A stretch of 64,000 bases of DNA from assembly GCA_963804995.1 (NCBI GenBank), contig CAWDSK010000009.1, positions 32,001 to 96,000 on the forward strand. Direction: 5' to 3'. This DNA comes from an uncultured Acidobacteriota bacterium. Lineage in GTDB: Bacteria > Acidobacteriota > Terriglobia > UBA7540. The translations under genes and the position numbers were made by a program. Shown one piece after another: positions 47,365 to 56,593 of this stretch. Under the pieces are notes generated by a model that was given only the letters and a program-made list of their open reading frames with translations, was not told the DNA's origin and made no database searches. Positions within the stretch are counted from its first letter, which is position 1. Each line of letters opens with the position of its first letter.

Positions 47365-47525
47365 TGGCCCCTCTCCCCTGGATAGAGGGAAAGTCTAATG
47401 GACTCATGCAGGAGCGTCAAGTTAATCGGGTCATTTGGCCATCGGGTTATCGAGCCATTGAAAAAATCGGGGCATTTGAAATTGATCAAGGAATCCCTGA
47501 TCTGATGGCCAGATCGCTCAATGAC

Positions 47526-48011
47526 TCAAGGGCCCGATGATCCGATCTTCTTGGGCTTCCACTGCTCGAAGAAACCTCTGATGCTCTCGTAGCTCATATG
47601 ACGGGCGTCGGCGAATTGGCCTTGGTCCATCGCATAGAGGAGGCGCCCACTTGAATCCAACACAGCCAGGGCGGGGACACCGTGTTTGACGGGGACATGG
47701 TATTTCTCCGCCAGGTCCAGGTTCTTATCGTAGCGACCCACGTCTACCTTCACGATGACGAACTTCTCTTCGAGGAGGGAAGCCAACTCAGCTTTATGCA
47801 TATGCGCATCCAGCGCATAACAATCTGGTCACCAGTTGGCGCCGAAGATGAGCACGACATTTTTCCTGCTCTTCGCCGCTTTCGCAATTGCCATCGAGAC
47901 GTCGCGCTGCGCATCCGCCTTCTCGTCATACAGCGCTTCGGTGGCCCCCTTTAGCGCGCCGCTGAAGACCAGCATAGCCAGGATCGGAAGTCCATACCTT
48001 TTGGCATTCAT
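47526..48011 (-). CDS. Exported thioredoxin-family selenoprotein (UPDC active site; in-frame TGA at 47829-47831)
   Basis: ORFs 47829-48035 and 47526-47801 are in frame; readthrough gives VVLIFGANW-U-PDCYALD..., VKVDVG, GVPAL cis-Pro loop; SECIS-like hairpin follows. Confidence 0.8.
47801..47819 (-). promoter_or_regulatory. Bacterial SECIS-like hairpin
   Basis: mRNA UAUGCGC-UGGAU-GCGCAUA: perfect 7-bp stem, loop begins 16 nt after UGA, G at loop position 2. Confidence 0.7.
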
Positions 48012-48241
48012 CCGCGTTCCTCCGCCCTCCATCATATCGCAAGTTTTTCAAAATTCGATGCGGCCGTCGGTGCTGTCCTAATTTCAAACGTAGCGCCGGC
48101 TTCCAGCCGGCATGGAGCCCCGATGAATCGGGGCGCTACGTTCAAATTAGACAGCACCCGGCTGTCGCTCGCTACCCACCGGCGGAGCGGCTGTGATAGC
48201 ATCAGCATACAGGATGAGATAGAAAGGAAGCTGAATCTCCG

Positions 48242-55205: not shown

Positions 55206-56181
55206 TCAGTTCGCCGCCTTCGAGGCTTCCGCCGCGGCTTCCTCGCTGACGTCTTTAGTAGTGAGCTGCAAGAAGATCTCTTCCAGGCTTAAGCCACTGG
55301 TCTTCAATTCGAAGAGTTTCCAGCCGGATTCCACCACGACTCGCGCCAACTCAGCGCGCACGTCCTGGTCCTTCTCCGAGTGCACTTCCAAAGTCACCTT
55401 GCCGTCGCTGGAGTCCCGCGGCTCGAACCCAGTTCACGCCGCCCACTCTTTGAAACTTCTCAATGATCTCCGCCGCCGGACCTTCCGCGGTCACCAGCAG
55501 CGTTGAGAACCCCTGCAAGCGCCGCATGAGCTCATCCGGCGTCCCCACCGCCACAATCTGCCCCGCGTTGATCACCACGACGCGCTGGCAGGTCTTCGAA
55601 ACTTCCGGCAGGATGTGGGTACTCAGGATGACCGTGTGCTGTCCAGCCAGTCTCTTGATCAGTTCGCGGGTCTCAATGATCTGCTTGGGATCAAGGCCGG
55701 CCGTCGGTTCGTCCAGCACCAGCACATCGGGATTGTGAATCAGCGCCTGCGCCAATCCCACCCGTTGCCGGTATCCTTTGGAGAGCTTTCCGATCTGGCG
55801 CCGGCGGACGTCGGTGATTGCACACTTTTCATCCACTTCGGCCAGTCGAGCCTTTATATCACGGTGCGATACACCTTTGATTCGCGCCACGAAGGCCAGG
55901 TACTCGTCCACGGTCATGTCCGGATACACCGGAGGAGTTTCCGGCAGATAGCCCGTGCGCCGCTTTGCCTCCAAGGGATCCTCCACCACGTCGTAGCCTG
56001 CGACCAGAACCTTCCCTTGCGTGGGGGGGAGAAACCCCGTGATCACGCGCATGGTCGTGGTCTTCCCGGCGCCGTTGGGGCCGAGAAAACCCAGGATCTC
56101 ACCTTTCTGCACCGTGAAGCTCAGGTCGGAAACGGCCACGGTGGGTCCGTAGCGCTTCGTAAGATTCTCTACTTCGATCAT
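55206..56181 (-). CDS. ABC transporter ATP-binding protein (GldA-like), apparent 1-bp frameshift at about 55427
   Basis: GPNGAGKTT, LSKGYRQRVG, LDEPT; C-terminal ..SLEEIFLQLT lies in another frame; removing one base near 55426-55430 restores it. Confidence 0.85.
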
Positions 56182-56593
56182 GTAAAGCCACCCTTCCTGC
56201 TTCCGAGGATTACCGGATGCCTCAATCTCCCCAGGCAAATCTGTTGACGCTGTTCAAATGAAGATTGCGCAACCAAGCGGATCGTTCCTGCCTAAAGCAG
56301 CCCGGCCCTCTGGGGATATGAACGCGGCCCGAACTAATAAGAATTACCAGAAAACCCGCATGGTTGCCAAGGGGTTTGATGAGGCGTCGTGGGTCAGCTT
56401 GGTGTAGAGGCGGCTTTAGGCCGCCATTTGGCGAGGTAAACTCGCCGCTACAGAAACATCGAACTCAGACCCTACCCAGCCCTGATGAGGGTTGGCGGTT
56501 TGCCCCGGATGCGTTACGATGCTGGGTCCGGTGGGCAGGAGTCCAATCTTCAGCAAAATAGCCAGCCACCGGCACATATGGGGAGGGGGCGAA

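What the first reader, a model, noticed from the sequence alone, without database searches (positions are those of the whole stretch)
47526..48011. Hidden selenoprotein: exported thioredoxin with UPDC active site and SECIS hairpin
Seen: two short ORFs in the same frame are separated by one TGA (47829-47831) exactly at the first Cys position of the thioredoxin WCxxC motif (GANW-TGA-PDC). The mRNA then forms UAUGCGC-UGGAU-GCGCAUA, with the loop 16 nt after UGA and G at loop position 2. Known: this fits bacterial SECIS geometry, and UxxC is the typical selenoprotein redox motif. Readthrough gives 161 aa with a signal peptide. Inference: an exported Sec-thioredoxin that standard callers split, implying selABCD elsewhere in the genome.
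Basis: partly seen in the sequence, partly recalled or inferred. Interest (0 to 1): 0.82.

Follow-up and report, generated by a model that had tools for sequence, protein, structure and literature searches.

The report
Exported selenocysteine thioredoxin in soil Acidobacteria
The apparent stop codon inside this thioredoxin-fold gene very likely encodes selenocysteine: 27 related genes keep the same UGA and the same small RNA hairpin where other relatives have cysteine, so this is likely an exported redox selenoprotein that gene callers cut in half, a new member of a known kind.

Summary
Confirmed. The gene lies on the minus strand (48011-47526). Reading TGA 47831-47829 as Sec gives 161 aa with a W-U-P-D-C site and a hydrophobic N-terminus. 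Of 87 distinct close homologues, 27 have TGA at this codon and 60 have TGC/TGT. All 27 TGA genes keep an open, purifying-selected frame and the same 5-bp hairpin 16 nt downstream; 7 of 60 Cys genes do. Synonymous divergence in the hairpin is 0.06 against 0.61 in Cys genes. The genome has selA, selB, selC and a TGA-bearing selD, plus at least eight more Sec-type redox genes. selA and selB each carry one extra base, which matches a motif-linked assembly error seen in control genes; raw reads were not available. The fold matches PDB 3FK8. Sec likely arose within one Terriglobia family and reverted to Cys several times. The likely role is an envelope disulfide reductant fed by CcdA (inferred, about 50%). 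Trx-fold UxxC selenoproteins are well known; this 3FK8-like subfamily has no entry of its own in the 2026 catalogue. Earlier scan notes report other exported Sec-thioredoxins in Terriglobia, none matching this sequence.

The parts
47526..48011 (-). Full coding sequence, 161 aa with Sec at residue 61; thioredoxin fold of the 3FK8 / Thioredoxin_7 type
   Evidence: PF13899 55.5 bits, PF00085 32.2; 3FK8 E 8e-13, rmsd 1.7, 41% identity
48018..48023 (-). Shine-Dalgarno-like GGAGGA 6 nt before ATG 48011 (favours this start over ATG 48035)
   Evidence: sequence; homologue starts align with this Met (M9 nearly invariant)
47934..48011 (-). Predicted export signal or membrane anchor, residues 1 to about 26 (basic start, hydrophobic core); no lipobox Cys in this copy; cleavage site uncertain
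   Evidence: mean hydropathy 2.46 over the best 10 residues; 50 of 50 homologues with an intact N-terminus have such a stretch; lipobox-like motif in 10 of 14 TGA and 7 of 36 Cys genes. No signal-peptide predictor was available.
47829..47831 (-). In-frame UGA at the attacking position of the CxxC motif (Sec61)
   Evidence: 27 TGA / 60 TGC or TGT among 87 distinct close homologues
47820..47822 (-). Resolving Cys64 (TGT) of U-P-D-C
   Evidence: invariant in 53 aligned proteins
47801..47819 (-). bSECIS-type hairpin: 7-bp stem, UGGAU loop (47812-47808); conserved 5-bp core 47817-47803
47673..47675 (-). Pro of G-V-P-A-L just before a beta strand, the position of the thioredoxin cis-proline (cis state not checked)
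   Evidence: invariant P121 in P0001 numbering; strand 122-126 in the model; role recalled from general knowledge

Best explanation
This gene very likely encodes a 161-residue thioredoxin-fold selenoprotein, predicted to be exported, whose UGA is decoded as selenocysteine with the help of the hairpin 16 nt downstream, and which likely works as a disulfide reductant in the cell envelope. Mechanism: SelB with Sec-tRNA would bind the UGGAU hairpin and deliver Sec at codon 61 (inferred from the standard bacterial mechanism). The N-terminal signal would send the chain out of the cytoplasm (predicted). The Sec61 selenolate would attack a substrate disulfide, Cys64 would resolve the mixed bond, and the resulting Se-S bond would be re-reduced by the genome's single CcdA-type membrane electron carrier (inferred). 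Candidate substrates are the exported Sec-type peroxiredoxins of the same genome or oxidised envelope proteins (speculative). Sec appears to have replaced Cys within one Terriglobia family and to have reverted to Cys repeatedly, with some revertants still keeping the hairpin. Confidence is about 0.95 for the selenoprotein and about 0.5 for the CcdA-fed reductant role.
For: Codon exchange: 15 of 53 distinct genes TGA in the first set, 12 more in a second set; 27 of 105 family genomes with the gene carry TGA at the site, in six genera. Every residue seen at the site is TGA, TGC or TGT. The frame stays open for 94-102 codons after TGA in all 27; median dN/dS after the hairpin is 0.10 in the TGA group (87 usable of 105 pairs). 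Hairpin: 15 of 15 against 2 of 38 in the set where it was defined, then 12 of 12 against 5 of 22 in new genes; all five core pairs hold in 27 of 27, with two G-C to G-U changes. Synonymous divergence at codons +4..+9 is 0.059 in TGA genes and 0.611 in Cys genes, while downstream both are about 0.64. Among genes that encode the same ALDA peptide, Ala+5 is GCG in 25 of 25 TGA and 18 of 30 Cys genes. Machinery: selA, selB, tRNA-Sec(UCA), selD with its own TGA; selA found in 25 of the 26 other TGA-bearing genomes, and the exception (75% complete) has a TGA-bearing selD. Nine of 15 other readthrough candidates scanned match redox families with TGA at a Cys-motif position. Fold: 3FK8, thioredoxins and DsbD-gamma. 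One CcdA-type gene, and a separate VKOR-DsbA-like-rhodanese fusion that could supply the oxidative pathway. Precedent for a carrier-thioredoxin-peroxiredoxin chain in the envelope: PMC3322552.
Against: No protein, RNA or raw-read evidence for this organism. selA and selB each have one extra base in this assembly; at the average control rate (6 of 107 orthologue pairs, about 136 kb) both being hit has a chance of only about 0.5% by hand estimate. The shared error signature softens but does not remove this. No two-sided compensatory change is seen in the hairpin, and the peptide ALDA itself favours it. The tree gives only 1-2 independent Sec/Cys pairs on well-supported branches, too few for a test, so the counts overstate independence. 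No neighbour gene with a redox role is conserved: neighbours differ between families, so substrate and direction of catalysis are not shown. The 3FK8 label 'disulphide isomerase' has no functional paper in the library.
Confidence: 0.9

Rival explanations
1. The family is a true selenoprotein family, but this strain has lost Sec decoding (real frameshifts in selA and selB), so the gene is no longer read through here.
For: One extra base in selA (C9 near 299164) and in selB (C5 near 338952) against two to four relatives; both genes being hit is unlikely at the average rate.
Against: All 8 breaks examined are single-base insertions, and 7 of 8 lie within 30 nt of CTCGA/TCGAG, including 5 of the 6 control genes, against 12.9% of random 60-mers. 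Both halves of selA and selB are 75-86% identical to relatives with no further lesion in the alignments. selD, tRNA-Sec and nine other TGA-bearing redox genes are intact.
Confidence: 0.05
2. The TGA is a nonsense mutation or a sequencing error in a Cys gene.
For: The assembly has errors. One other in-frame TGA in this genome, in a hydrolase-like gene, is not shared by any of 8 other matches, so such stops occur.
Against: 26 other genomes have TGA at the same codon, never TAA or TAG, with open frames and constrained hairpin codons. Contigs of related strains from three public runs (two studies) span the codon and no base change is listed there.
Confidence: 0.02
3. UGA is read through by another route (general recoding to Trp or Cys, or leaky termination) rather than as Sec.
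For: None specific.
Against: TGA ends 1015 long ORFs in the genome and ends this gene itself; the site aligns only with Cys; tRNA-Sec(UCA) is present.
Confidence: 0.01
4. It is a selenoprotein, but it acts as an envelope disulfide isomerase or oxidase (DsbC/DsbA-like) rather than as a plain reductant.
For: The closest structure is deposited as 'disulphide isomerase', and JGI names many homologues 'protein disulfide-isomerase'. The envelope is oxidising.
Against: No DsbA helical insert or DsbC dimerisation domain in the model (domain roles recalled). The genome has a separate VKOR-DsbA-like fusion. The names are automatic or structural-genomics labels.
Confidence: 0.3
5. It is a selenoprotein with TRP14-like specificity, reducing small disulfides, cystine or persulfides at the cell surface rather than peroxiredoxins.
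For: All 27 Sec genes have U-P-D-C; WCPDC is the TRP14-type motif, and such proteins reduce typical Trx substrates poorly (PMC8945050 passages); weak PF06110 hit, below cut-off.
Against: CGDC and other dipeptides are common in the Cys members; the TRP14 similarity is below the family cut-off; no sulfur-metabolism neighbours.
Confidence: 0.15

Closest known systems
PDB 3FK8, 'disulphide isomerase' of Xylella fastidiosa Temecula1 (Cys form)
   Same: Same subfamily by sequence (E 1.3e-30) and fold (rmsd 1.7, 41% identity); same FGANW-C-x-D-C and G-I/V-P motifs.
   Different: Cys-Thr-Asp-Cys instead of Sec-Pro-Asp-Cys; no function paper found.
[quoted passage not shown]
   Same: Trx fold, Sec at the first position of UxxC, in-ORF SECIS; this protein passes both Pfam cut-offs (32.2 vs 23.5 and 27.5 vs 27 bits).
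   Different: Best Pfam is Thioredoxin_7 (55.5 bits); far below the TrxA equivalog cut-off; N-terminal export signal. The catalogue's representative sequences could not be compared directly.
Trx7/PDZ (seleno)protein NF041199 and rhodanese/DsbD fusion TsoB NF045694
   Same: Related thioredoxin domain (19.1 and 43.7 bits); both are listed selenoprotein families.
   Different: Far below the cut-offs (300 and 805); those are multidomain proteins with CxxU and UxxxxU motifs; this is a single domain with UxxC.
ScsB-TlpA-PprX envelope peroxide-reduction pathway of Caulobacter (PMC3322552)
   Same: Model for how an exported thioredoxin-like protein could work between a membrane electron carrier and an exported peroxiredoxin.
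   Different: Cys-based; TlpA is a different subfamily; this genome has CcdA rather than ScsB, and a TlpA/ResA-like candidate of its own that may fill that role.

Membership tests
Bacterial selenoprotein (UGA + bSECIS + SelABCD) | In-frame UGA aligned with a conserved Cys of homologues | tested here: met
   27 TGA / 60 Cys close homologues and 28 of 28 distant homologues Cys
Bacterial selenoprotein (UGA + bSECIS + SelABCD) | Hairpin fitting the bSECIS model (loop 3-9 nt, stem 4-16 bp, G in first two loop positions, 16-37 nt from UGA, MFE <= -7.5) | tested here: met
   5-nt loop, 7 bp, G at position 2, 16 nt, -11.8 kcal/mol; bSECISearch itself was not available
Bacterial selenoprotein (UGA + bSECIS + SelABCD) | Hairpin conserved with the UGA | tested here: met
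   27 of 27 vs 7 of 60; pS 0.06 vs 0.61; no compensatory pairs; too few independent tree pairs for a formal test
Bacterial selenoprotein (UGA + bSECIS + SelABCD) | Coding sequence conserved on both sides of the UGA | tested here: met
   open frames, dN/dS about 0.10
Bacterial selenoprotein (UGA + bSECIS + SelABCD) | selA, selB, selC, selD present | tested here: met
Bacterial selenoprotein (UGA + bSECIS + SelABCD) | selA and selB intact in this strain | tested here: inconclusive
   one extra base in each, with an error-like signature; raw reads not available
Bacterial selenoprotein (UGA + bSECIS + SelABCD) | Selenium shown in the protein | not testable with these tools
   needs 75Se labelling or mass spectrometry
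Thioredoxin fold, 3FK8-like / PF13899 | Trx fold with CxxC/UxxC at the start of the active-site helix and a conserved Pro before the following strand | tested here: met
   cis geometry not checked
Canonical thioredoxin TrxA (TIGR01068) | Score above the equivalog cut-off; WCGPC-type site; cytoplasmic | tested here: not met
   24.6 vs 96.8 bits; UPDC site; hydrophobic N-terminus
Trx7/PDZ selenoprotein (NF041199) | PDZ domain, CxxU motif, score above 300 | tested here: not met
   19.1 bits, single domain, UxxC
TsoB (NF045694) | Rhodanese/DsbD-like fusion, score above 805 | tested here: not met
   43.7 bits over the last domain only
TRP14 / TXNDC17-like (PF06110) | WCPDC motif and score above cut-off | tested here: inconclusive
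   motif present as WUPDC, but 20.2 vs 23.1 bits
Catalogued 'thiol:disulfide interchange protein' (PF13098) or 'thiol-disulfide isomerase-like' (cd02966) selenoproteins | Orthology to the catalogue's representative sequences | not tested
   representatives and BSepDB entries could not be retrieved; only Table S1 of the BSepDB supplement was held, cut
Exported (Sec-pathway) protein | N-terminal signal peptide, cleaved or anchoring | tested here: inconclusive
   hydrophobic stretch in 50 of 50 intact N-termini, lipobox-like in 17 of 50; no predictor or localisation data

The most novel reading that the evidence does not exclude
This is an uncatalogued selenoprotein subfamily that marks a selenium-based reducing network in the envelope of soil and peat Terriglobia (CcdA to Sec-thioredoxin to Sec-peroxiredoxins), selected because Sec stays ionised in an acidic periplasm. 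It also records a recent Cys-to-Sec gain on a peptide (ALDA) whose codons pre-form a SECIS, with repeated reversions that leave vestigial hairpins, a natural series for testing why Sec is gained and lost.
Probability: 0.3. Interest if true: 0.68.

Novelty: new member of a known kind. Interest (0 to 1): 0.42.

Why it matters
It corrects a systematic annotation gap: the Sec form sits in databases as an 85-91 aa fragment without its active site (144 short clusters). It shows Sec use in Terriglobia well beyond the 3 selenoproteins listed for the one Acidobacteriota test genome in deep-Sep (PMC12013277); this genome has at least 10 candidates, about half with hydrophobic N-termini. The family also offers closely related Sec and Cys versions in genomes that all keep the Sec machinery, which makes the old question of why some enzymes switch to Sec directly testable. 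The kind of protein, a UxxC thioredoxin-fold selenoprotein, is well known.

Tried and rejected
Hairpin stability as evidence on its own: rejected (z -0.38 to -1.92; loose model met by 36% of control codons; my loose script model also passed 13 of 38 Cys genes). Single origin with no reversions: the Sec genes as one clade are rejected (AU p 0.0012, 15 vs 36 rows); gains cannot be told from losses by counts, and support is low. Phylogenetically independent test of Sec against hairpin: only 1-2 pairs on starred branches, no verdict. Reversion to Cys caused by loss of the machinery: not supported, selA is present in 36 of 36 family genomes, Cys-type ones included, and in 5 of 7 Cys-type genomes. 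Gene context as a clue to function: TPR, YHS, ThiD-like and enoyl-CoA hydratase neighbours are shared only among close relatives, and other families have other neighbours. Fused longer forms: none among 1784 candidates, weak evidence. Expression: no RNA holder listed. Raw reads of this organism: not available; only contigs of related strains. Promoter and terminator scan: chance level. A hydrolase-like gene with an in-frame TGA as a possible new selenoprotein: rejected, no TGA in 8 other matches. Sec-type formate dehydrogenase: two molybdopterin hits, neither with a stop. DsbB: not found in this 92% complete genome. The exact-sequence cluster look-up and the protein-atlas search gave no result, so how NCBI annotates these genes stays unchecked. 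Literature searches that found no report of this subfamily as a selenoprotein.

Full report
Observation. The gene is on the minus strand. Table 11 gives two same-frame ORFs, 47829..48035 and 47526..47801. With TGA read as U the frame runs on to TGA 47528-47526. ATG 48011 has GGAGGA 6 nt upstream and gives 161 aa with U61 in FGANW-U-PDC. It fits the four constraints of the bSECIS model as given in PMC13188914 (Fig. 2 legend). Taken alone it is weak: z-scores are -0.38 to -1.92, and a loose stem of at least 5 bp follows 36% of both Cys codons (4456 of 12,400) and true TGA stops (365 of 1015) in this genome. The exact geometry follows 34 of 12,400 Cys codons and 0 of 1015 stops.

Organism and distribution. 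The named relatives are Terriglobia / Acidobacteriota MAGs. The gene is found in 105 of 133 genomes of the window's family and in 27 of 301 genomes drawn from the phylum, the window's included. Cys-form homologues also occur in Chromobacterium and Xylella (PDB 3FK8).

UGA and Cys alternate at one codon. The 73 loci collapse to 53 distinct genes: 15 TGA (this one included), 31 TGC, 7 TGT. I then fetched 40 more loci, chosen as 14 flagged with one TGA and 26 without a stop. Six were duplicates; the rest gave 12 TGA and 22 Cys genes. Of the 28 rows with one TGA, 27 have it at the active site, across six genera; the other lies upstream. All 28 more distant loci from the phylum search have Cys. All 27 TGA genes read U-P-D-C and stay open for 94-102 codons. 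Median dN/dS downstream of the hairpin is 0.10 for TGA genes (87 usable of 105 pairs) and 0.165 for Cys genes (396 of 528; three distant and two truncated Cys genes left out). Contigs of related strains in three public runs span the codon with no change listed there, while other contigs stop matching at that codon; these are not reads of this organism.

The hairpin travels with the UGA. I defined the test as at least 5 contiguous pairs closing a UGG loop at position 17. It is met by 15 of 15 TGA and 2 of 38 Cys genes in the first set, and by 12 of 12 and 5 of 22 in the second. Those five Cys genes sit among Sec genes on the tree, as recent revertants would. All five core pairs hold in 27 of 27 TGA genes, with two G-C to G-U changes and no two-sided change. 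Synonymous divergence over codons +4 to +9 is 0.059 in TGA genes and 0.611 in Cys genes; downstream both are about 0.64, and no other six-codon window in the TGA group falls below 0.42. Among genes coding the same ALDA peptide, Ala+5 is GCG in 25 of 25 TGA and 18 of 30 Cys genes, and base 12 is T in 25 of 25 and 14 of 30. These genes are related, and the trees give only one or two independent Sec/Cys pairs on well-supported branches, so no formal test was possible.

Machinery. The genome has selA (C9), selB (C5), selD with an in-frame TGA in AG-U-AAK (C2) and tRNA-Sec with anticodon UCA (C3). selA and selB each carry one extra base compared with relatives. As a control, 6 of 107 orthologue pairs (kept from 261 ORFs of a same-genus genome) were also frameshifted. 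At that average rate, both genes being hit has a chance of about 0.5% (hand estimate), which counts against a simple dismissal. However, all 8 breaks are single-base insertions and 7 of 8 lie within 30 nt of CTCGA/TCGAG, against 12.9% of random 60-mers. I noticed the motif on selA and selB first; among the six controls alone 5 carry it (about 2e-4 by hand binomial). A motif-linked long-read error is the simplest reading; the link to DNA methylation is recalled, and the passages seen in PMC11649196 only show that indels in nanopore assemblies split genes. selA is found in 25 of the 26 other TGA-bearing genomes, and selD has one TGA in 30 of the 31 genomes with a match among 35 searched.

A wider selenoproteome. 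A script scan of 223,009 TGA codons kept 1769 with coding-like flanks, 390 with a loose hairpin and 158 with a loose motif; this gene ranked fourth. Of 15 other candidates picked by eye and scanned, nine match redox families with TGA at a Cys-motif position: SelD, a protein disulfide oxidoreductase (TIGR02187, over cut-off), a TlpA/ResA-TPR protein, two TxxU peroxiredoxins, two UxxC peroxiredoxin-like proteins, a DedA-rhodanese fusion and an OsmC-like protein. Five of these have hydrophobic N-termini by eye. One candidate, a hydrolase-like gene, has no TGA in 8 other matches and is treated as an ordinary stop or error. The remaining five are one pair of adjacent pilin-type genes and four frames with no family match.

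Annotation. Full-length relatives in the protein set are all Cys forms (120 listed of 641). A search of shorter proteins returns 144 clusters; of the 120 listed, 118 start with Met, nearly all at the MHK-type Met ten codons after the site, and none contains the active-site motif. This fits routine splitting, though their DNA was not checked one by one and records that bear U cannot be found by these tools.

Protein and likely mechanism. Pfam gives Thioredoxin_7 first (55.5 bits), then Thioredoxin and Thioredoxin_2 just over their cut-offs; no NCBIfam model is passed. The model (mean pLDDT 76, core mostly 80-95) matches 3FK8 best (E 8e-13, rmsd 1.7), then thioredoxins and the DsbD C-terminal domain. 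All 50 homologues with an intact N-terminus have a hydrophobic stretch; a lipobox-like motif is in 10 of 14 TGA and 7 of 36 Cys genes, not in this one. The genome has one CcdA-type protein, no DsbB hit and a VKOR-DsbA-like-rhodanese fusion. I therefore infer a reducing role fed by CcdA, by analogy with ScsB-TlpA-PprX (PMC3322552, abstract and passages). This is an inference at about even odds; an isomerase role or a TRP14-like small-disulfide role (PMC8945050 passages) remain open. The lower pKa of Sec (5.2 against 8.3, PMC10779653 passages) would keep the nucleophile ionised in an acidic envelope; that is a hypothesis, and peat MAG titles include both Sec and Cys forms.

Evolution. With Cys outgroups, the Sec genes are nested inside the family. 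They do not form one clade (7 changes on the careful tree, AU p 0.0012; 13 changes with 91 rows). One gain with several reversions fits the identical hairpin in all 27 and the leftover hairpins in nested Cys genes. Repeated gains on a pre-formed hairpin cannot be excluded, since a Chromobacterium Cys gene has the same core codons.

Comparison with what is known. PMC13188914 (read: the first two of ten parts, section 7 parts 1-2 with Table 1, and passages) lists 119 families, many with a Trx fold and UxxC. None is a stand-alone Thioredoxin_7 / 3FK8-like protein, and the main text does not mention Acidobacteria. Its PF00085 and PF13098 entries are broad enough that BSepDB (PMC13326102; read part 2 of 6, passages, and a search of the one cut supplement, which lists 114 Terriglobia rows) may already hold these genes under one of those names. 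I could not check this. Passages were also read in PMC1794560, PMC12013277, PMC1088965, PMC6196236 and bioRxiv 2022.07.06.499078 without finding this subfamily. Earlier notes of this scan describe other exported Sec-thioredoxin-like genes in soil Acidobacteria with different motifs; none matched this protein by sequence.

Verdict. A real selenoprotein gene with high confidence, a new member of a known kind, probably an unlisted subfamily. The function beyond thiol-disulfide exchange outside the cytoplasm is inferred. Interest 0.42.

Noticed in passing
G000: C6:1783390-1784118 (-), C5:478744-479676 (+), C2:656443-657078 (-), C2:655828-656355 (-), C3:1729233-1729910 (+), C2:437799-438458 (+), C6:188705-189589 (+), C6:863888-864403 (+) (L124-L127, L129, L130, L133, L134): Eight further candidate selenoprotein genes besides selD: PDO-type (UPHC), TlpA/ResA-TPR (WUMC), two tandem TxxU peroxiredoxins, two YWUP[YF]C peroxiredoxin-like, DedA-rhodanese (YCTU), OsmC-like. 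Conservation in relatives was not checked.
   Followed up: partly
G000 C9 near 299164 (selA), C5 near 338952 (selB), and six control genes: Single-base insertions clustered at CTCGA/TCGAG, a likely systematic assembly error; frameshift findings elsewhere in this genome should be treated with suspicion.
   Followed up: yes
window 55206-56238 (-): ABC transporter ATPase whose C-terminal part continues in another frame (ORFs 55351..56238 and 55206..55397); the break region contains TCGAG, so probably the same artefact.
   Followed up: partly
window 48060-48159: A 100-nt palindromic element (-57.5 kcal/mol) upstream of the gene with 44 blast hits in the genome; one related contig lacks 98 nt here. 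Looks like a MITE/REP-type insertion.
   Followed up: partly
window 47420-47500: A shorter repeated intergenic element (10 hits in the genome) between this gene and the TPR gene.
   Followed up: no
G000:C3, L148 244..1890 (-): VKOR fused to a DsbA-like domain (CPAC) and a rhodanese-like C-terminal domain, an apparently self-contained disulfide-forming protein; domains after VKOR judged by eye.
   Followed up: no
G000:C5:1304904-1309125: A dense array of 26 tRNA genes within about 4.2 kb.
   Followed up: no
G000:C8, L140 2352..2939 (-): A distant paralogue with a signal-like N-terminus and only one Cys in the motif (GGDWDMWC).
   Followed up: no
G000:C4:24735-26840 (-), L132: Hydrolase-like gene (weak AXE1 hit) with one in-frame TGA not shared by 8 other matches; nonsense mutation or error.
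   Followed up: yes
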